DNA from: a virus
Virus record (IMG/VR): IMGVR_UViG_3300006880_000001
Coordinates: 32,001 to 96,000 of that record
DNA length: 64,000 nucleotides
Direction: 5' to 3' (one strand)
In this document: one piece after another, positions 635 through 56,097 of the stretch
Numbering within the stretch: the stretch's first letter is position 1
Layout: each line of letters opens with the position of its first letter
Position numbers and translations under genes: made by a program
Notes under the pieces: generated by a model
What the model saw: only the letters and a program-made list of their open reading frames with translations
The model's database searches: none
Told to the model about the DNA's origin: nothing

Positions 635-663
635 TTGACACGCCTACATGGTGTCGCTAGGTT
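635..663 (+). promoter_or_regulatory. sigma70-type promoter
   Basis: TTGACA (635-640), 17 nt, TAGGTT (658-663); same hexamers and spacing at 55448-55476. Confidence 0.8.
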
Positions 664-670
664 CGGTGGC

Positions 671-1025
671 ATGTCCCATTGACCGTCAGCCGCCCGCGGC
701 CACGTCACTCGCCCACTACGTCGTCATCCGCGCTGACCTCCCCCTCGGGTTGAAGGTCGCCAACACAGTCCACGCAGCTGGGCTATCCGCCTCCTGGCGA
801 GACGGTCCGCTGCCCACCGACACCATCGCCGTGGCTCTCGCCGCGCGTGATGAGAGCCACCTCCACGAGCTCTCCGTGAAGCTCGCGGAGCGCAACATCC
901 TCCACCACCCTGTCCGTGAGTCCGACGGACCCTACGCGGGGCAGTGGATGGCCATCGGCCTCGAGCCGACCGCCGACCGCGACGCGGTCAGAAAGGTGGT
1001 CTCGCACCTACCGCTCGTGCGGTGA
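671..1025 (+). CDS. peptidyl-tRNA hydrolase, PTH2-like; start probably ATG671 with +1 frameshift (track start 648)
   Basis: YVVIRADL..GLKVANTVHAA...AIGLEP...HLPL pattern of PTH2 family; adjacent to tRNA-like genes. Confidence 0.75.
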
Positions 1026-1033
1026 ACGTTCCT

Positions 1034-1108
1034 GGGGTCGTGGTGTACGCACGCACGCGCCGTCCTCGCGCCGGCGAAGACCTGGCCTGCCGCCAGGCGA
1101 CCCCACCA
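1034..1108 (+). tRNA. atypical tRNA-like RNA, 9-nt anticodon loop, degenerate D and T loops
   Basis: Acceptor GGGGTCG/CGACCCC + ACCA; D stem GTGT/GCAC; anticodon stem CGCCG/CGGCG with loop TCCTCGCGC; T stem CCTGG/CCAGG with loop CCTGCCG. Confidence 0.7.
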
Positions 1109-1109
1109 A

Positions 1110-1186
1110 GCGCGCTTAGCTCAGCAGCAGAGCACCGAGCGTAATGGACTCGGGTGTCGGGGGTGCGACTCCCTCAGCGCGCGCCA
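1110..1186 (+). tRNA. atypical tRNA-like RNA, 9-nt anticodon loop CGTAATGGA
   Basis: Acceptor GCGCGCT/AGCGCGC + GCCA; D stem GCTC/GAGC; anticodon stem CCGAG/CTCGG; T loop TGCGACT. Confidence 0.8.
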
Positions 1187-50173: not shown

Positions 50174-52054
50174 ATGACCACTGCCCGCGAGAACCTCGGT
50201 CCCGCCGAGACCATCATTCAGGCACTACTCGCGTACACGGACCACCTGGTGCACAACCGCCCCGGCATCGTCACGCCGGATCGGACGGTGACCATTGGCC
50301 TTCGCTGGGAACCCGTGACCCACAAGGTGGAGCAGGACCAGAAGGTCGTCTACCGGCTGACCAAGGTCGGCAAGAAGACGCAGCGGGTCCGCGTTGGGGC
50401 CCTGCGGCCCGACAAGAAGGTGGTCGAGGCCGGGCGGGAGGTTGCCGAGTACCGTGACAGCGGCCTCTTCCCCGAGGTGGCGACCTGGTTCTACCAGCAG
50501 GTCGCCAATGTCTGGCGCCTCGACAACGAGTTCGCCGCGCGGTGGGCGTCGTACGCCTACGGCCAGGAGCACCGTGACCTGAAGTGCGTCCTCGCGGCTT
50601 TCATGCTCGTCCAGACCCGCAAGGGCGACCCGATCGTCGAAGGTGGAGAGGTCCTCTTCCACGACGAAGACTTCCGCGACGTCGGCGAGGCCATGATGCT
50701 CCTCCACAAGAAGGGGGACGACAAGGGCCTGAACCCGAAGCTGCTACTCCGGATCTACGACATCCTGACGCTGCCGGCGGTCGCGGCCATCAACCACGAC
50801 CTCGGCTTCGGGCAGTCGACGCGTCATCCATTCCTCGGCCGCTGGCCGCGGGTGGTGGAGAAGTGGCTCCGCCACCGCGAGGAGAACCCGAAGTTGCTCG
50901 AGGGTCTCATCAAGGCCGGGTTCCGCACGGCGGTCATGGAGCTCGCGCGGCGCGTCGGCTACAAGCCGACCTCCACCCGCTTCTTCGAAGTCCTGCGCTG
51001 GAAGCAGGTCCAGGCCGACGACGGTCGGCGGGAGCTCGCCATCGGGCAGGCTACCGCGGCCGCGGAGAGCTGGGCAGGCCTCTCCGAGGAGCAGATCTGC
51101 CAGGCGATCGTCGCCGCCCGCTACGACTGGAAGCGGATCGTCAGCCTCCTGCCGAAGACCGTCGGCGTCACGCGTGCGGTGATCGCCGCGGCGATGGAGT
51201 CCGGCGGCCTCTCGAACAAGGATCTCGTCATCCTGACGCCCACGCTCGAAGAGCTCGGCCTGCTCGACGTCGGATCGATCAAGGATCGCTGGTCCGCTGC
51301 GCTCAAGGCGGCTGACGACATGCGCGCCAGCAACGTCGCCCGCAACGTTCGCAACAAGGAGACCAAGGAGAAGCTCGAGGAGGCCGCCGACGGCGCGCTG
51401 CAGAAGCAGGTCGAGGCGGTGACCCGCCAGCTGCGGGTCTACTTCATGGTCGACATCTCGGGATCCATGGAGAGCAGCATCGCCACGGCCAAGGAGTACC
51501 TCGCCAAGTTCATCCAGGGATTCCCGTCGGACCAGGTCCACGTCGCGGTCTTCAACACCCAGGGCAAGGAGGTCGCCATCAAGCACCGTTCGGCCGCGGG
51601 GGTCGAGAATGCCTTCCGTGGCTACGTCGCCGGCGGTGGCACCGACTACGGCGCCGGCGTCCGCGCGCTACGTGACCGCAAGCCCAAGGCGGACGAGGAC
51701 GTCCTCTTCATCTTCGTCGGCGACGAGGAGGCTGAGCCCTTCGCCTCGTCCGTGACGCTGTCGGGTCTCAACCCCATGGCCTTCGGCCTGCTCAAGGTTC
51801 GCCCGACGGGGGCCGGGTTCCGGGGGGTCCAGGATCACAACGCCGCCGTGCGCGAGACGGCGCGGCAGCTCAAGATTCCGTGTTTCCCGATCGAGGAGGC
51901 GATCTTCGCCGACCCCTACGCGATTCCGCGCACCATCCGCGCGCTGATCGCGGCGACGCCGATCACGCAGACGACGACGACGGTCACGCCGCGCAAGACC
52001 CTGATCGACCAGATCCTCAAGACCGAGCTCCTGACGAAGCCGACCTGGGCCTGA
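50174..52054 (+). CDS. vWA-domain protein with large helical N-terminus (TROVE/Ro60-like architecture)
   Basis: MIDAS DISGS, GGTD, FVGDE at C-terminus. Confidence 0.8.
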   Translation: MTTARENLGPAETIIQALLAYTDHLVHNRPGIVTPDRTVTIGLRWEPVTHKVEQDQKVVYRLTKVGKKTQRVRVGALRPDKKVVEAGREVAEYRDSGLFPEVATWFYQQVANVWRLDNEFAARWASYAYGQEHRDLKCVLAAFMLVQTRKGDPIVEGGEVLFHDEDFRDVGEAMMLLHKKGDDKGLNPKLLLRIYDILTLPAVAAINHDLGFGQSTRHPFLGRWPRVVEKWLRHREENPKLLEGLIKAGFRTAVMELARRVGYKPTSTRFFEVLRWKQVQADDGRRELAIGQATAAAESWAGLSEEQICQAIVAARYDWKRIVSLLPKTVGVTRAVIAAAMESGGLSNKDLVILTPTLEELGLLDVGSIKDRWSAALKAADDMRASNVARNVRNKETKEKLEEAADGALQKQVEAVTRQLRVYFMVDISGSMESSIATAKEYLAKFIQGFPSDQVHVAVFNTQGKEVAIKHRSAAGVENAFRGYVAGGGTDYGAGVRALRDRKPKADEDVLFIFVGDEEAEPFASSVTLSGLNPMAFGLLKVRPTGAGFRGVQDHNAAVRETARQLKIPCFPIEEAIFADPYAIPRTIRALIAATPITQTTTTVTPRKTLIDQILKTELLTKPTWA

Positions 52055-52063
52055 GGGGGCATC

Positions 52064-52435
52064 ATGGCGAACCCCGTCGAGATCCCCGTCCTCGAGATGC
52101 TCGAGGCCTACCGCAAGCTGGAAGATGCCCTCGCAGCCGTCTTCGGCTTCGATCCCTGTGCGTACGCCGGATTCGGCGACTGCACAGACATGTGGTGGGT
52201 GTCGGATGGCCGGAAGGTGTGGTCGAGCGATCAACAGCTCACCGAGGAGGTGATCACGGCTGGGCGCCACCTCTATTCCCACGTGATCAAGGAGACGCGA
52301 CGCTGCGGTTCCTACGTCGCGTTCCAATTCGAGACGGACACCGACTCGGAGATCGTAGATCTCGTTCACGTGTTCACCACCGATCTCCAGATCCATGACG
52401 AGGGACTCCTCGAGATCGCCCAGGAGACCTGGTGA
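52064..52435 (+). CDS. hypothetical protein
   Basis: 123-aa ORF inside operon. Confidence 0.65.
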   Translation: MANPVEIPVLEMLEAYRKLEDALAAVFGFDPCAYAGFGDCTDMWWVSDGRKVWSSDQQLTEEVITAGRHLYSHVIKETRRCGSYVAFQFETDTDSEIVDLVHVFTTDLQIHDEGLLEIAQETW

Positions 52436-53382
52436 GCTGGCGAGATCTCCTCGGATCGTCTGACCAGACGATCACGTTGCCGTGGGTGGGTGGAGCGACC
52501 CTGCACGGACCGCGGTCTTGGTGGACCATCACCTACGAGGCGATGCGGTTCCTACGAGGCCACGATCACGGCTGGTACACCTTCCGCATCGATCGCCGCT
52601 GCGTCACCGATCCGCAGCCGGCGGAGCCCGATCCGACGGCCCTCCACTTCGACGCCCACGGGTACCTCGTCGGGGACCGCCTCGCGCGCTGGGACATCCG
52701 GCCTCGCGCAACTGAGCCTGCCGCCATCATCAGCTACACGGAGCCCGTCTTCCTCATCGACCCGGGCCTCGACCGGTTCGTACGCGTCAGCGCGGGCCGC
52801 GTCTACGAGCGCGGTCCCCTCATCTACCGCCAGCAAGAGATGCCGGTCGGGCCGGAGCAGGAGGTCCTCACGGCCTTCCTCGATCGGGCAGAGAACGTCG
52901 ACGCGGTCAGCGGTGTGTCGCCGGCGCTCGAGGCGGCCTTCCGAATGGAGACCCACCAGCGCGCGGAGGCGGAGCGACGTCGAGAGGAGCTCCGCCAAGA
53001 AGCGGCCCGCCTCGAGACGGAGCGTCAGGAGGCGGAACGTCGCCAGCAGATCGTCCAGCAGCTCGGCGACGGAGCGGGCCGACGCGCGGTCGCCCGGACC
53101 GACTTCGGCGACGCCGCGCGAGCGGCCCTCGCCATCGTGGACGCCGAGCTCATCGACCACCGTCGAGGACAGCGCGGAGAGTACGTCGTCCGCTACCGGA
53201 TCGAGAACCGACGCTTCGAATGCGTCTGTGACGAACAGCTCCGGATCATCGACAGTGGTATCTGCCTCGCTGACCACGCGACCGGCGAGAAGGGCGATAC
53301 ACGCTTCACGCTCGAGTCCCTCCCGACGGTCATTCGCCAAGCCATCCGCGAGAACCGCCTCGTCGTCTACCGACACGTCTGA
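52432..53382 (+). CDS. putative E2-like conjugating protein
   Basis: C-terminal IIDSGICL resembling the E2 GxICL catalytic Cys; operon context. Confidence 0.5.
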   Translation: MSWRDLLGSSDQTITLPWVGGATLHGPRSWWTITYEAMRFLRGHDHGWYTFRIDRRCVTDPQPAEPDPTALHFDAHGYLVGDRLARWDIRPRATEPAAIISYTEPVFLIDPGLDRFVRVSAGRVYERGPLIYRQQEMPVGPEQEVLTAFLDRAENVDAVSGVSPALEAAFRMETHQRAEAERRREELRQEAARLETERQEAERRQQIVQQLGDGAGRRAVARTDFGDAARAALAIVDAELIDHRRGQRGEYVVRYRIENRRFECVCDEQLRIIDSGICLADHATGEKGDTRFTLESLPTVIRQAIRENRLVVYRHV

Positions 53383-53396
53383 AGAGGAGCAGGGAC

Positions 53397-53750
53397 ATGG
53401 ACATGAAGCTACCCCTCGTATCGCCAACGAACTCCGATCAGGATGTGGTGTTCGTATCCAACCTCGTCATCGGCCCCGGTGTGGTCCTGGAGGTGCAACG
53501 GACGGCTCCTGCCAAGGCAGGCAGAGTTGTCCAGGTGTGCATCCACGGTTGCATCGTCGACGGACGTCCGTCGCAGCACAGCGATGCCCCGCTCATCACA
53601 CTCGTCGATGCTGACGATCGGATGGTCCTCGTCATCAAGGACGCGATCATCACACGCCAAGGACCTGATCTGGCGTCCCCGATCCCCGCCGAAGTGCCGG
53701 TGGTCGAGTGGACCTCGCTGCCGCCCGAACCGCCCGAGCCCAAGGAGTGA
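53397..53750 (+). CDS. hypothetical protein
   Basis: GGAG RBS; 117 aa. Confidence 0.55.
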   Translation: MDMKLPLVSPTNSDQDVVFVSNLVIGPGVVLEVQRTAPAKAGRVVQVCIHGCIVDGRPSQHSDAPLITLVDADDRMVLVIKDAIITRQGPDLASPIPAEVPVVEWTSLPPEPPEPKE

Positions 53751-53755
53751 CCGTG

Positions 53756-54190
53756 ATGGAAACCGGCGTCCTCATCGCCAGGGGCATGGCCCCCCTCTAC
53801 TGGCACTTGCCGGAAGGGCGAACCTCCGGTAGCTTGCCCGACTCGCGCGTGCTGTGGGACACCATCTGGCTCCACCGCCACGACCTGGAGGGCTTCGCGC
53901 ATACCCACCCCGGCGGCGGCCAGCCGTGGCCGTCGACCGAAGACATCACCACCTTCTTCGCCATCGAGCTCGCGCTCGGGCGCAAGCTGACCTGGTGGAT
54001 CAGCAACCAGGAGCGGACCGTCGTCGTCGTCACCACCGACGACTACGAATTCGACCACGGCGACACGCGGGTCACGAAGTCCGGCGAGGTCATCGAAGGT
54101 CAGAAGTCCCGCCGTCAATCGTATCGCGTCTTCCCGATCCCCGACGAACCGTCCTGGGTCGCCGAACTTCGCCATCAATCCAACCTCTGA
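53756..54190 (+). CDS. JAB/MPN+ metallopeptidase
   Basis: N-terminal ETG and HTHP...PSTED (HxH-x7-S-x2-D). Confidence 0.9.
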   Translation: METGVLIARGMAPLYWHLPEGRTSGSLPDSRVLWDTIWLHRHDLEGFAHTHPGGGQPWPSTEDITTFFAIELALGRKLTWWISNQERTVVVVTTDDYEFDHGDTRVTKSGEVIEGQKSRRQSYRVFPIPDEPSWVAELRHQSNL

Positions 54191-54199
54191 AGGAGCACC

Positions 54200-54496
54200 A
54201 TGAACGAACTGATCCATGTCGAGGGCCGCCGCGAGCTGGTGCGCGACGACGAAGCCCGCGTCAACATCACCTACAAGGGCGAGAACGGGGACCTACCGGA
54301 CACCATCACCTTCGATGCCACCGACGCTGACGTCAAGACGTGGGTCACGGAGGCAGTCCGGGGCGGGCACGTTCCGGGCATCGCCGCCGACCCCGGCGCG
54401 AACTTCCGCGACTTCGTCGTCGATCGCTTCACGCCCACCGACGCGCGGCCGTTCAACCTCATCTCGATCCGCCCGAAGACGCCGTTCGGCCGATGA
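54200..54496 (+). CDS. ubiquitin-like (beta-grasp) modifier, C-terminus ...RPKTPFG-R
   Basis: 98 aa between JAB and E1; penultimate Gly. Confidence 0.65.
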   Translation: MNELIHVEGRRELVRDDEARVNITYKGENGDLPDTITFDATDADVKTWVTEAVRGGHVPGIAADPGANFRDFVVDRFTPTDARPFNLISIRPKTPFGR

Positions 54497-54849
54497 TGAA
54501 CGTCGTCAAGCGATGCCCGGGGTGTGGCGCTACGTGGGTTACGCCCCCGGGATCGATCATCAAATGCCGGAACTGTGGGACGACCTGCGCCGGCACGACG
54601 TCCGTCGCGTTTACCACTGACGCCCCCACGGTACAGACGGCGGACGGTGATGAGACCGCAACAGCGCTCCAACTGGCCGACGCCAAGGTCACGGAGGCCA
54701 GGGATGCGCTGCAGGCTCTCGTCAAGGCGAACCCTGCCCTCGTCCATCCTCAGTGCCGCACGTGGCAATGTCGTCGGTGTCGGCTACGCAACACGATCGA
54801 GATGCTCGAGTGCTGGGAGCCACTTTCACAGGAGGCGAAGAAGTCATGA
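54493..54849 (+). CDS. zinc-ribbon protein
   Basis: CPGC...CRNC and C-x4-CRRC. Confidence 0.6.
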   Translation: MMNVVKRCPGCGATWVTPPGSIIKCRNCGTTCAGTTSVAFTTDAPTVQTADGDETATALQLADAKVTEARDALQALVKANPALVHPQCRTWQCRRCRLRNTIEMLECWEPLSQEAKKS

Positions 54850-55439
54850 CCACCGTAGCGGGTGAGCAGCGGATCGTCATTGCGGGCATCGGAGCGTTGG
54901 GGTCGCATCTCGTGCCCCTGCTGAGGAATCTCCCCGCCGACCTTGTCGTGGTCGACTTCGACCGCGTCGAGAAGAAGAACGTGGCCTCGCAGTTCTACGG
55001 CACCTCCACCGTGGGCCAAACGAAGGTGGAGGCCCTGAAGCGCCTCATGCTGTTCCTCTACGCCGCGCCCGTGCAGGCGAAGGGGTATCGGATCTCCGAG
55101 GCGAACGTCGATGTGCTTCTGGCCGGCGCGACGCTGGTCGTGGATTGCCTCGACAACGGTGATGCGCGTCGACTCGTCCAAGGCTTCGTGCGCCGGCACA
55201 AGGTACCGTGCGTGCACGGCGCCCTCGCCGCCGATGGCAGCTTCGCCCGCGTGATGTGGGACGAGGCGTTTGTCATCGACAACGAGGACGTCGTCGGTCA
55301 GCCGACCTGCGACGGCGGCGAGCACCTGCCGTTCATCGCCGCCACGGCGGCGTGGCTCGCGCAGGCGGTGCAGACGTTCTGCCGGAGCGGAAAACAGTTC
55401 AACTACTATGTTTCTCCGGCGAACGTCATCTTGCTCTGA
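54846..55439 (+). CDS. E1/ThiF-family adenylating enzyme
   Basis: GIGALGS, DFDRVE.KN..SQ, K.EAL, VVDCLDN..AR, PTC. Confidence 0.92.
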   Translation: MTTVAGEQRIVIAGIGALGSHLVPLLRNLPADLVVVDFDRVEKKNVASQFYGTSTVGQTKVEALKRLMLFLYAAPVQAKGYRISEANVDVLLAGATLVVDCLDNGDARRLVQGFVRRHKVPCVHGALAADGSFARVMWDEAFVIDNEDVVGQPTCDGGEHLPFIAATAAWLAQAVQTFCRSGKQFNYYVSPANVILL

Positions 55440-55447
55440 TCTCGTCC

Positions 55448-55476
55448 TTGACAGGACGGCCACGAGTAGCTAGGTT
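55448..55476 (+). promoter_or_regulatory. sigma70-type promoter of tRNA-like locus
   Basis: TTGACA-N17-TAGGTT. Confidence 0.8.
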
Positions 55477-55509
55477 GCTTCTCGGACGCGACGAGAAACG
55501 GCCCATCAC

Positions 55510-55640
55510 GGAAGGGTAAGGGGACCGGGTCCCCGCCAACTGCTAAATTGGTCCACCCCGACAACGCCTCTCGCTGGCCTCGGCTAGCACACGGCAGCTG
55601 TCTACAAGAACGGTCGGTTCGACTCCGACACCCTTCCCCA
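55510..55640 (+). ncRNA. tRNA-like RNA with large variable-arm insert; G-1:C73, 8-nt anticodon loop CTGCTAAA
   Basis: GGAAGGGT/ACCCTTCC + CCA; D stem GGGGAC/GTCCCC; GCCAA/TTGGT; T arm GTCGG-TTCGACT-CCGAC. Confidence 0.75.
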
Positions 55641-55670
55641 CTTCGCTGACAACTGAATAATGACCATTTC

Positions 55671-55803
55671 CGGGGGGACGTCGCCTGGTGGCGACACTTT
55701 CATATGACGAAAGCAATCCCGACAACGCCTCTCGCTGGCCTTGGCTAGCACATGGCGCCTGTCTACAAGGAAGCCGTGACAGGTTCGATTCCTGTACCCC
55801 CGA
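55671..55803 (+). ncRNA. tRNA-like RNA with the same insert; anticodon ATG, 6-bp D stem
   Basis: CGGGGG/CCCCCG; GTCGCC-TGGT-GGCGAC; CTTTC-ATATGAC-GAAAG; ACAGG-TTCGATT-CCTGT; no encoded CCA. Confidence 0.75.
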
Positions 55804-55832
55804 CTGAGCGCAGTCATTTCGAGGTGCTTACA

Positions 55833-55907
55833 CGCGAAGATGCTCATTGGTCGAGCATCGGCCTTAAGAGCCGACAGGAGTCGGTTCAAATCCGACCTAC
55901 GCACCCA
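55833..55907 (+). tRNA. tRNA with TAA anticodon, short variable loop, C1xA72 mismatch
   Basis: GCTC/GAGC D stem; TCGGC-CTTAAGA-GCCGA; GTCGG-TTCAAAT-CCGAC; CCA. Confidence 0.8.
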
Positions 55908-56097
55908 ACTCAGCCCCTCTCCTCGACCGCGCTCGTTATTTGACCGAAGGGTTGTGGGTCGCCCGCCAGATCGGTGCGGTGAACTACACCTCGGCCGCCA
56001 TCCTCGCCAACCAGCTGCAATTGGTTGGTGAGGGTGGCGGCCTCAGCCTTTTGGGGTGAGCGGAATGGTCACTGCGCCGATGTACTATGGTTTGACC

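What the first reader, a model, noticed from the sequence alone, without database searches (positions are those of the whole stretch)
55510..55803. Two tRNA-like RNAs carry the same 52-nt insert that reads PTTPLAGLG-stop
Seen: two cloverleafs with unrelated stems share a variable-arm insert (55557-55608 and 55718-55769, 48/52 identical). One frame reads CCG ACA ACG CCT CTC GCT GGC CTY GGC TAG; the only difference within it is synonymous, and the TAG lies in a hairpin (GCTGGC/GCTAGC). In both RNAs the 3'-stacked anticodon triplet is exactly 15 nt upstream and in frame (ATG at 55704 giving MTKAIPTTPLAGLG*; CTA at 55543). LAGLG matches the LxG/GLG motif found across the virion proteins. Known: tmRNA joins a tRNA-like domain to a tag frame whose stop sits in a hairpin, but lacks an anticodon arm. 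Inference: these may be compact tRNA-mRNA hybrids that add or template a Gly-terminated tag, or the insert is a protein-binding module (e.g. for the nearby TROVE-like protein) and the reading frame is chance.
Basis: partly seen in the sequence, partly recalled or inferred. Interest (0 to 1): 0.92.

Follow-up and report, generated by a model that had tools for sequence, protein, structure and literature searches.

The report
Phage tRNA mimics with docking arm
The two odd tRNA-like genes are real, but their shared 52-base insert is a conserved folded arm carried by many phage tRNA look-alikes that sit beside a Ro60-like RNA-binding protein gene, not a hidden peptide-tag message.

Summary
Two tandem tRNA-shaped genes (55510-55640, 55671-55803) share a 52-nt insert, 48 of 52 identical, at the same place in the variable region.

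I found 90 further module-bearing RNAs in 39 IMG/VR phage loci. The insert is a three-helix rod with invariant CUC and YACAMG and strong covariation (89.9% paired against 57.0% shuffled). Only 23 of 92 members have any stop in the PTTPLAGLG frame, and only 4 have it at codon 10. Lengths are not multiples of three.

The 626-aa vWA protein upstream folds like Ro60. Rod-bearing RNAs lie on its strand in 49 of 52 records tested. Bodies keep the tRNA elbow (GG in 49 of 49 D loops) but not decoding features (U33 in 25 of 39; 11 of 50 loops not 7 nt).

The most likely reading is non-coding, Y-RNA-like tRNA mimics docked by the Ro60-like protein, within a conserved Ro60-like/JAB/Ubl/E1 cassette. Binding is inferred, not shown.

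The scan noted this kind before on other DNA (e1-5321842, e1-4035509, e1-5841884). I found no paper or Rfam family for it.

The parts
55448..55476 (+). Promoter-like TTGACA-N17-TAGGTT, 34 nt upstream of RNA1
   Evidence: The perfect motif occurs only twice in the 129-kb genome, here and before the other tRNA-like pair at window 635. The generic sigma-70 scan did not call it.
55510..55640 (+). RNA1, a tRNA-shaped RNA. G-1 (55510) pairs with C73 (55637). Acceptor 55511-17/55630-36. Encoded CCA 55638-40. 6-bp D stem with 3-nt loop, 55520-34. Anticodon arm 55535-52 with 8-nt loop CUGCUAAA. T arm 55613-29.
   Evidence: Reading. MFE fold z -2.78. tRNA-Sec CM 30.9 bits, below cut-off. ARAGORN calls tRNA-???(gcta) in 103 of 126 hairpin-skipped variants. 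R2 gives 80.7 bits.
55557..55608 (+). Rod module, copy 1. CCC; P1 55560-63/55599-602; P2 55565-68/55593-96; CUC 55570-72; P3 55573-78/55583-88 capped by CUCG; UACAAG 55603-08.
   Evidence: Fold -19.4 kcal/mol, z -2.63. Fits the family consensus at every hallmark position.
55671..55803 (+). RNA2, a tRNA-shaped RNA. Acceptor 55671-78/55795-802 with one G.A mismatch (readable as 8/4 or as 7/5). A73 at 55803, no CCA. D stem 6 bp with UGGU loop, 55680-95. Anticodon arm 55697-713 with loop AUAUGAC. T arm 55779-95.
   Evidence: Reading. MFE fold z -3.25. tRNA-Sec CM 27.8 bits, below cut-off. ARAGORN gives 0 of 126. R2 gives 72.2 bits.
55718..55769 (+). Rod module, copy 2, with the same layout. P3 is capped by the CUUG tetraloop, and P2 is fully paired.
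   Evidence: Fold -19.9 kcal/mol, z -3.25. 48 of 52 identical to copy 1.
55833..55907 (+). Third gene of the RNA operon: a 75-nt tRNA with anticodon UAA (Leu codons) and no rod.
   Evidence: ARAGORN. Rfam tRNA 47.6 bits.
50174..52054 (+). Ro60-like protein, 626 aa: N-terminal beta domain, helical-repeat ring and C-terminal vWA. It is the proposed partner of the rod.
   Evidence: Pfam finds VWA_2 only. AF2 pLDDT 88.3, pTM 0.82. The top 13 listed Foldseek PDB hits are all Ro60/TROVE, E 5.6e-8 to 1.7e-5, 528-572 columns. VIA: Z 14.3 with 418 aligned (2i91_A), Z 14.0 with 430 aligned (1yvp_A).
52432..53382 (+). Conserved cassette gene p316, function unknown
   Evidence: tblastn homologue just after the Ro60-like gene in 59 of 64 loci. 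No Pfam family passes its cut-off.
53708..54190 (+). JAB-like peptidase gene of the cassette
   Evidence: Weak Prok-JAB match, E 0.002. Conserved in 55 of 64 loci.
54200..54496 (+). 98-aa cassette gene. Another first-stage note calls it ubiquitin-like; I did not test this.
   Evidence: Conserved in 53 of 64 loci. No Pfam hit.
54753..55439 (+). ThiF/E1-like adenylyltransferase, the last protein gene before the RNAs
   Evidence: Pfam ThiF E 3.3e-21. Conserved in 48 of 64 loci.

Best explanation
RNA1 and RNA2 are non-coding members of a conserved family of phage tRNA-shaped RNAs. I found no description of this family.

Each member is a complete cloverleaf in normal 5'-3' order. Its variable region carries a roughly 45-nt rod: P1, P2, an internal loop with invariant CUC, and P3, followed by single-stranded YACAMG.

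The rod is most likely the docking site for the Ro60-like (TROVE plus vWA) protein encoded 3.5 kb upstream on the same strand. That would give a Y-RNA-type particle in which the tRNA body serves as the bait or tether for tRNA-binding factors.

The RNAs are transcribed from their own promoter together with a tRNA(UAA). They belong to a cassette of Ro60-like, p316, JAB, Ubl and E1 genes.

Shown here: the family, its structure, loss of the reading frame, the fold of the protein, and the gene linkage. Inferred: that the rod binds the Ro60-like protein, and what the particle then does.
For: 1. Family and structure. Model R2 finds 162 matches at E <= 0.001 in the window plus 56 non-redundant loci that encode the Ro60-like protein, 160 of them on the gene's strand. 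92 of the best 150 carry CUC + P3 + [UCA]ACA[ACU]G, and they come from 40 of 57 sources.
2. Covariation. 89.9% of cells are paired against 57.0% in shuffles. The score is 0.608 against 0.149, reached by 0 of 500 shuffles, and slid controls stay at or below 0.132. All 14 rod pairs show changes on both sides.
3. Not coding. See the first-reader verdict.
4. Protein. The AF2 model has pLDDT 88.3. The top 13 listed Foldseek hits are all Ro60/TROVE. VIA aligns 417-430 residues to Ro60 entries at Z 13.6-14.3.
5. Linkage, protein to RNA. 39 of 56 loci have a rod RNA within the 7-kb flanks. 10 of 13 flank-negative records have one cluster 7-16 kb away on the same strand.
6. Linkage, RNA to protein. A gene-blind pattern scan of IMG/VR gave 35 stretches. 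The 7 that R2 confirms all lie in contigs that carry the gene.
7. The cassette crosses phage lineages. Of 5 cassette-bearing records, only 1 has a clear homologue of this phage's PolA.
8. Mimic rather than decoder. D-loop GG is present in 49 of 49. U33 is present in only 25 of 39 seven-nt loops, and 11 of 50 loops are 6 or 8 nt, RNA1 among them.
9. Precedent. Bacterial and phage Y RNAs mimic tRNA and lie within 4 kb of Ro60 on the same strand (PMC4201824, passages read). A phage Ro60 binds two phage Y-like RNAs (PMC12135203, abstract and passages read).
Against: - There are no binding, expression or processing data. No RNA run was listed for this phage.
- Pfam TROVE is not matched by sequence at E <= 0.01.
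- Global TM-scores to Ro60 are only 0.32-0.50.
- The rod shows no GNCGAA/CGAA-type motif that the papers give for Ro60 sites. Only RNA2 has GACGAAAG, and it lies in the anticodon arm.
- The other four cassette proteins are about as tightly linked as the Ro60-like protein. Any of them could be the partner.
- The cassette lies among tRNA genes in at least one relative, so proximity alone is weak evidence.
- Many members have ordinary anticodons. 27 of 92 end in CCA. RNA1 has G-1:C73 plus CCA. These features would also suit working tRNAs.
- The covariation counts were made on an alignment fitted to the model.
Confidence: 0.6

Rival explanations
1. They are working tRNAs with a permanent tagged arm. 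RNA1 would be charged with His through G-1:C73 and CCA and read UAG or the quadruplet UAGC. RNA2 would read the rare CAU codon. The rod would be an identity, protection or recruitment element, possibly still bound by the Ro60-like protein.
For: - RNA1 has G-1:C73 followed directly by CCA.
- The anticodons of this phage's tRNA-like genes (UAA, AAU, AUG) match rare A/U-ending codons: TTA 7, ATT 42 and CAT 134 of 33,527 codons.
- 70 of 92 family members are called tRNAs, spanning at least 20 anticodon classes, once the rod is skipped.
- Engineered tRNAs with hairpin aptamers in the V-arm stay active in translation (PMC7590224, abstract and introduction read).
- G-1 irregular tRNAs are charged by HisRS (PMC5389517, section 16 read).
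Against: - U33 is present in only 25 of 39 seven-nt loops, and 11 of 50 loops are not 7 nt.
- Several A34 anticodons are called.
- TAG is an ordinary stop here, ending 37 of 149 GC3-picked ORFs, so an efficient amber suppressor would be costly.
- RNA2 lacks CCA, has an acceptor mismatch, and is never called by ARAGORN.
- The G-1 irregular tRNAs of PMC5389517 were charged but did not decode.
Confidence: 0.2
2. The rod is an intervening sequence. It is cut out at the conserved CC / YACAMG borders by host or cassette enzymes and the halves are ligated, giving ordinary tRNAs. The Ro60-like protein might chaperone this step.
For: - The insertion point is the same in all members, and the border motifs are conserved: CC before P1 in 58 of 92, and [UCA]ACA[ACU]G after P1' in all 92 by selection.
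- The anticodons are diverse.
Against: - The linkers around the rod vary widely: 0-13 nt on the 5' side and 1-12 nt on the 3' side in 41 calls. Removing the rod would not restore a 4-5-nt variable loop.
- Decoding features are relaxed.
- No RtcB is found in this genome, although a host ligase could serve.
- I know of no bacterial or phage enzyme that removes variable-loop inserts (recalled, not searched).
Confidence: 0.12
3. They are tmRNA-like hybrids. The insert would be translated, or would template PTTPLAGLG, as a Gly-ended tag.
For: Both window copies read PTTPLAGLG-stop, and the one difference inside the frame is synonymous.
Against: - The frame is not conserved. 69 of 92 homologues have no stop in it, and lengths vary out of phase.
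- The distance from the anticodon stem to the rod varies from 0 to 13 nt.
- The supposed coding stretch is a covarying helix capped by a stable C(CUYG)G tetraloop.
- An anticodon arm is present, and there is no G3.U70.
- Neither ARAGORN nor Rfam gives a tmRNA call.
- 27% of random 52-mers have an equivalent ORF.
Confidence: 0.01

Closest known systems
YrlA-type Y RNAs bound by Ro60/Rsr in bacteria and mycobacteriophages (Rfam RF02553; Chen et al. 2014, PMC4201824)
   Same: Both are non-coding RNAs with a tRNA-like D/T elbow. Both are encoded within a few kb of a Ro60-type protein gene on the same strand, and often in several copies.
   Different: - In YrlA the RNA ends form the Ro60-binding stem and an anticodon arm is missing. 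Here the cloverleaf is complete and in normal order, with free acceptor ends, and the extra helix sits in the variable region.
- There is no RF02553 match in this genome at E <= 1.
- The conserved motif differs (CUC / YACAMG).
- The protein is so divergent that Pfam TROVE does not see it.
- The locus always carries JAB/Ubl/E1 genes.
Thermus phage phiLo Ro60 with Yrl1/Yrl2 (PMC12135203; PDB 9KOP, 9L5Y)
   Same: A phage-encoded Ro60 homologue with phage-encoded partner RNAs next to its gene. These entries are the best Foldseek matches to the window's protein.
   Different: By the passages read, the phiLo Yrls are stem-bulge-stem Y RNAs with a CGAA motif, not cloverleaves. Sequence identity to the window's protein is 13-16%.
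allo-tRNAs and irregular tRNA polycistrons (Mukai et al. 2017, PMC5389517)
   Same: Long D stem with a tiny loop, 8/4-type options, G-1 forms, odd anticodons, tandem irregular tRNA genes in soil and phage sequences, and a group with an 'extra loop'.
   Different: Those have V-arms of ordinary class II size, and no Ro60 link is reported. Whether their E-loop tRNAs are this family could not be checked, because the figures and supplements were not available to me.
tmRNA
   Same: A tRNA-like acceptor/T domain joined to extra RNA.
   Different: The defining features are absent (see Membership tests).
Synthetic aptamer-tagged tRNAs (Mukai 2020, PMC7590224)
   Same: A protein-binding hairpin is placed in the V-arm of a tRNA chassis, and binding can sequester the tRNA or recruit a protein.
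   Different: Those are engineered. Here the same design appears in natural phage genes.

Membership tests
tmRNA | Conserved tag reading frame that ends in a stop | tested here: not met
   A stop occurs in the frame in 23 of 92 homologues, and at codon 10 in 4 of 92. Length mod 3 is 44/26/22.
tmRNA | tRNA-like domain without an anticodon arm, and alanine identity G3.U70 | tested here: not met
   Both RNAs have an anticodon arm. RNA1 has A3-U70 and RNA2 has G-C at that position (fold).
tmRNA | Detected by ARAGORN tmRNA search or by the Rfam tmRNA models | tested here: not met
   No tmRNA call. No Rfam tmRNA match even at E <= 10.
YrlA (Rfam RF02553) | Covariance-model score at or above 69 bits | tested here: not met
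   0 matches at E <= 1 in the own genome, and 0 over the cut-off in 5 records. Absent from the cmscan of 55400-56000.
YrlA (Rfam RF02553) | The 5' and 3' ends form the Ro60-binding stem, with the tRNA-like part permuted and lacking an anticodon arm | tested here: not met
   The order is the normal cloverleaf, with acceptor ends and an anticodon arm.
YrlA / Y RNAs in the wider sense | Encoded within about 4 kb of a Ro60-type gene on the same strand (criterion of PMC4201824) | tested here: met
   RNA1 starts 3,456 nt after the stop of the Ro60-like gene, on the same strand. All 92 family members lie on the gene's strand.
YrlA / Y RNAs in the wider sense | GNCGAAN0-1G / CGAA Ro60-site motif | tested here: inconclusive
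   RNA2 has GACGAAAG, but in its anticodon arm. RNA1 has none, and the rod has none (reading).
YrlA / Y RNAs in the wider sense | Physically bound by the Ro60-type protein | not testable with these tools
   This needs EMSA, RIP or a structure.
Ro60/TROVE proteins (for the 626-aa protein) | Pfam TROVE (PF05731) match by sequence | tested here: not met
   Only VWA families are found at E <= 0.01. No PDB sequence match to Ro60 at E <= 1.
Ro60/TROVE proteins (for the 626-aa protein) | Helical-repeat ring plus C-terminal vWA fold | tested here: met
   The top 13 listed Foldseek hits are Ro60/TROVE over 528-572 columns. VIA gives Z 13.6-14.3 with 417-430 residues aligned.
Canonical tRNA (Rfam RF00005) | Score at or above 29 bits, or an ARAGORN call, on the native sequence | tested here: not met
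   Neither detector calls RNA1 or RNA2 natively.
Canonical tRNA (Rfam RF00005) | 7-nt anticodon loop with U33 | tested here: inconclusive
   RNA1 has an 8-nt loop. RNA2 has a 7-nt loop with U33. In the family, U33 is present in 25 of 39.
allo-tRNA (8/4 or 9/3; PMC5389517) | 12-bp acceptor branch split 8/4 or 9/3 | tested here: inconclusive
   RNA1 is 7/5 plus G-1:C73. RNA2 can be drawn 8/4 or 7/5, each with one mismatch.
allo-tRNA (8/4 or 9/3; PMC5389517) | Long D stem with a tetraloop-size loop | tested here: met
   6-bp D stems with 3- and 4-nt loops.

The most novel reading that the evidence does not exclude
The cassette may be a new kind of viral machine. A Ro60-like ring sits on full tRNA decoys of many identities and works with the phage's own ubiquitin-like conjugation set (E1, JAB, Ubl, p316). 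Together they would capture and tag, or disarm, host proteins that grasp tRNAs, such as anticodon nucleases or other tRNA-directed defences. That would be tRNA-mimic-guided ubiquitin-like targeting.
Probability: 0.12. Interest if true: 0.9.

Novelty: new variant of a known kind. Interest (0 to 1): 0.6.

Why it matters
Ro60/Y-RNA particles are known in animals, in some bacteria and in a few phages. What they do in microbes is still largely open.

This is a large natural series: 92 RNAs in 40 phage sequences. A complete tRNA cloverleaf carries a conserved handle and is locked to a divergent Ro60-like gene and a ubiquitin-like enzyme set.

This gives a testable system for how Ro60-type proteins use tRNA mimicry. 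It flags a class of "tRNA genes" that annotation pipelines miss or would misread as broken or intron-bearing. It is also the natural counterpart of engineered aptamer-tagged tRNAs.

It removes an attractive but wrong idea, a mini-tmRNA.

Tried and rejected
Searches for near copies of the 52-nt module found nothing related.
- INPHARED blastn: only a 54-nt tRNA-Leu-like hit.
- IMG/VR exact scans: 0.
- Metagenome contigs, 21-mer: 1 chance hit inside a coding region.
- GTDB genomes, 21-mer: 3 chance hits in unrelated contexts.
- blastn-short within the genome gave no further copy or antisense target. The best other hit was 14 nt at E 0.048.

Searches for relatives through other genes also failed at first.
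- E1 protein: one distant IMG/VR locus, with no rod RNA directly after its E1 gene. That record later proved to carry a rod RNA upstream of its Ro60-like gene (L067).
- PolA domain: no relative found by peptide patterns.
- E1 homologues in the big protein collection are about 55-60% identical, and their context could not be fetched.

Sequencing runs gave no expression or variation data.
- No RNA holder was listed.
- Two DNA runs hold the identical phage and are probably its source. Two others hold a few identical 151-nt pieces. No variants were seen in the RNA region.

Other negative results:
- The generic promoter and terminator scan found no promoter. Its two 'terminators' are the D and T arms.
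- R1 on the distant relative G001 only hit an ordinary tRNA-Cys.
- The YrlA model found nothing.
- No RtcB was found in this genome.
- Five literature searches found no paper on rod-bearing tRNA-shaped RNAs or on a Ro60-like/Ubl cassette. The library lacks most subscription journals.
- Supplements and figures of PMC5389517 and PMC4201824, which may show related RNAs, were not seen.

Not done: complex prediction, which takes no RNA chain; a fold of p316 or of the 98-aa protein; host assignment.
Full report
WHAT IS THERE

The window is bases 32001-96000 of a 129,359-bp, 67% G+C virus record with direct terminal repeats.

Three RNA genes follow a perfect TTGACA-N17-TAGGTT motif at 55448-55476. 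They are RNA1 (55510-55640), RNA2 (55671-55803) and a 75-nt tRNA with anticodon UAA (55833-55907). That perfect motif occurs only twice in the whole genome. The other copy precedes a Pth2-like gene and two more odd tRNA-like genes at window 635-1186.

- The two 52-nt inserts are 48 of 52 identical.
- Their core occurs twice, against 0 expected.
- The rest of the two RNAs is unrelated apart from the T loop.
- Each insert folds into the same hairpin, at -19.4 and -19.9 kcal/mol.

ANATOMY OF THE TWO RNAS

RNA1 has:
- a 7-bp acceptor stem extended by G-1 (55510) paired to C73 (55637), followed directly by an encoded CCA. From established tRNA knowledge (recalled) this is the hallmark of bacterial tRNA-His;
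- a 6-bp D stem with a 3-nt loop;
- a 5-bp anticodon stem with an 8-nt loop, CUGCUAAA;
- a canonical T arm.

RNA2 has:
- a 6-bp D stem with a UGGU loop;
- a 7-nt loop AUAUGAC, whose anticodon AUG is complementary to CAU;
- a canonical T loop;
- an acceptor stem with one G.A mismatch that can be drawn 8/4 or 7/5;
- A73 and no CCA.

Detectors do not call either RNA natively. Rfam gives only sub-threshold tRNA-Sec matches, driven by the long D stem. When the hairpin is skipped in silico, ARAGORN calls RNA1 as a tRNA with the four-base anticodon gcta in 103 of 126 variants. It calls RNA2 in 0 of 126.

FIRST ROUND OF HOMOLOGUE SEARCHES

Exact and BLAST searches for the module in phage, viral, metagenome and prokaryote collections gave only chance hits. 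The E1 and PolA genes led to no close relative. Public runs hold only identical copies and no RNA data.

At this stage the coding idea could only be weighed statistically. 27% of random 52-mers of this genome carry an equivalent ORF, and a third of substitutions would be synonymous. TAG is also a normal stop here, ending 37 of 149 GC3-picked ORFs.

THE NEIGHBOURING PROTEIN

By sequence, the 626-aa protein at 50174-52054 shows only a C-terminal vWA domain.
- An all-against-all HMMER search gave 293 relatives, many of them full length.
- An AlphaFold2 model built on a 33-sequence alignment is confident, with pLDDT 88.3 and pTM 0.82.
- Its 13 best listed Foldseek matches in the PDB are all Ro60/TROVE proteins: Thermus phage phiLo, Deinococcus Rsr, and Xenopus and human Ro60. 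They align over 528-572 columns at E 5.6e-8 to 1.7e-5.
- VIA-align places 417-430 residues on Ro60 chains at Z 13.6-14.3. vWA-only chains align about 160 residues at Z about 15.

The global TM-scores are modest (0.32-0.50), and there is an extra N-terminal beta domain.

THE FAMILY

An alignment of the protein's closer relatives fetched 64 IMG/VR loci, at 34-66% identity. A two-sequence covariance model of the V region plus T arm already found clear homologues there. A second model, R2, was built from 41 matches.

R2 was run over the window plus 56 loci. Eight duplicate loci were left out: L040, L043, L078, L081, L088, L091, L093 and L094. It found 162 matches at E <= 0.001, of which 160 lie on the strand of the Ro60-like gene.

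Of the best 150 matches, 92 pass a simple filter: CUC, at least 5 P3 residues, and [UCA]ACA[ACU]G. They come from 40 of 57 sources, often as arrays of up to six.

The consensus is CC, P1 (4 bp), P2 (4 bp), N-CUC, P3 (6 bp, free sequence, mostly 4- or 6-nt loops), A-rich 3-4 nt, P2', P1', then YACAMG-C, a few nt, and the T arm.

Covariation is strong.
- 89.9% of cells are paired, against 57.0% in shuffles.
- The score is 0.608 against 0.149, reached by 0 of 500 shuffles.
- Slid controls stay at or below 0.132.
- Every one of the 14 rod pairs shows changes on both sides.
- Caveat: the alignment was fitted to the model.

RNA1 and RNA2 match the consensus at every hallmark position.

THE TAG TEST

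In the frame that reads PTTPLAGLG in the window, 69 of 92 members have no stop inside the module. Only 4 have a stop at codon 10, and two of those are the window's own copies. The other two frames have stops just as often (29 and 26 members).

Module lengths fall 44/26/22 over the three residue classes mod 3. The distance from the anticodon stem to the rod varies from 0 to 13 nt, so the 'in-frame anticodon' is not conserved either. The stretch that holds the TAG is the covarying P3 helix.

LINKAGE

Protein to RNA:
- 39 of 56 loci have a rod RNA inside the 7-kb flanks.
- Of the 17 that do not, 13 were searched as whole records. Ten have a single cluster 7-16 kb from the gene on its strand (positions).
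- The three negatives are a 34%-identity homologue and two small fragments.
- Four short contigs were not searched.
- These whole-record hits (47-73 bits) were not passed through my motif filter.

RNA to protein: a gene-blind gapped pattern for the GACA-type rod matched 35 IMG/VR stretches. R2 confirms 7 of them, and all 7 lie in contigs that carry the gene.

In two positive whole records the rod RNAs occur nowhere else in the record.

The gene order Ro60-like, p316, JAB, 98-aa protein, E1 is kept. The five genes are found in 64, 59, 55, 53 and 48 of 64 loci, and most misses are at flank ends.

The cassette is not just a trait of one phage lineage. Among five cassette-bearing records, the window's PolA has a clear homologue in one, a marginal one in another, and none in three.

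MIMIC OR DECODER

With the rod skipped, ARAGORN of 92 members as tRNAs. They span at least 20 anticodon classes, and 12 have odd loops.

In the single-variant run (50 calls):
- the D-loop GG is present in 49 of 49, and T loops are TTCGA/TTCAA types;
- anticodon loops are 7 nt in only 39 of 50;
- U33 is present in 25 of 39 and a purine at position 37 in 33 of 39.

From established tRNA knowledge (recalled), U33 is almost invariant in working tRNAs.

Selection therefore keeps the L-shape and the ends but is relaxed on the decoding loop. That fits tRNA mimicry better than decoding, and it explains RNA1's 8-nt loop as a family trait.

The linker lengths argue against simple excision of the rod. 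The genome also has no RtcB.

MECHANISM AND RIVALS

Best reading (0.6): these are Y-RNA-like particles. The Ro60-like ring docks on the rod, while the tRNA body engages tRNA-binding factors. This would parallel Y RNAs that tether Ro60 to PNPase (PMC4201824; PMC12135203; passages read). What the JAB/Ubl/E1 genes add is unknown.

Rivals:
- Working tagged tRNAs (0.2). This is compatible with docking.
- An excised intervening sequence (0.12).
- A tag template (0.01).

COMPARISON AND NOVELTY

These RNAs are not members of YrlA, tmRNA or canonical tRNA models. They work like Y RNAs only by inference.

Earlier notes of this scan describe the same kind on other DNA. Those notes prompted me to use the protein to fetch loci. 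I re-derived the family, the covariation and the linkage here independently.

Five literature searches found no description. Mukai 2017 mentions irregular tRNAs with an 'extra loop', but I could not inspect them.

Verdict: a real, conserved RNA, and a new variant of the Ro60/Y-RNA theme. The tag hypothesis is rejected.

Noticed in passing
window 635-663 and 55448-55476: The perfect TTGACA-N17-TAGGTT motif occurs only twice in the 129-kb genome. Each copy is directly upstream of a cluster of odd tRNA-like genes, which suggests the two RNA loci are co-regulated.
   Followed up: partly
window 1034-1186: Two further tRNA-like genes lie behind a weak Pth2-like ORF (648-1025; PF01981, E 0.00067, below cut-off). 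The first has a 9-nt anticodon loop, a non-canonical T loop (CCUGCCG) and no GG in its D loop. The second is called Ile(AAU) and has a 9-nt loop. Both encode CCA. Neither carries the rod.
   Followed up: partly
window 55833-55907: The tRNA with anticodon UAA is only 75 nt long (class I, no long variable arm). It has C1.A72 and A5.A68 mismatches and C73, which is unusual for a bacterial tRNA-Leu.
   Followed up: no
window 50174-55439 and loci L032-L095: The gene order Ro60-like, p316, JAB-like, 98-aa protein, ThiF/E1 is conserved across dozens of mostly jumbo phage contigs. The genes are found in 64/59/55/53/48 of 64 loci. I found no paper on this cassette.
   Followed up: partly
window 50174-52054 (protein residues 31-94): The Ro60-like protein has an extra N-terminal all-beta domain that the aligned Ro60 structures do not obviously share.
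   Followed up: no
e.g. L049:13943-13997, L072:2858-2917, L066:12858-12917, L082:13045-13113: A 'short class' of R2 hits (about 30-40 bits) keeps YACAAGCA before a canonical T arm but lacks P2 and P3. These may be reduced relatives, or ordinary tRNAs sharing the motif.
   Followed up: no
window 55802-55815: A small hairpin, GACUG-AGCG-CAGUC, starts at the last acceptor base of RNA2. It may be a processing or spacer element.
   Followed up: no
window 55706-55713: RNA2's anticodon arm contains GACGAAAG, which fits the GNCGAAN0-1G motif that Chen et al. give for bacterial Y RNAs. RNA1 has no such motif, so this may be chance (PMC4201824 passages).
   Followed up: no
G000:C1:111539-115324 (outside the window): A 1261-aa protein joins a family-A DNA polymerase domain to a UDG-superfamily domain.
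   Followed up: no
whole genome: The anticodons of the phage's tRNA-like genes (UAA, AAU, AUG) pair with rare A/U-ending codons: TTA 7, ATT 42 and CAT 134 of 33,527 codons. Stop use is TGA 106, TAG 37, TAA 6.
   Followed up: partly
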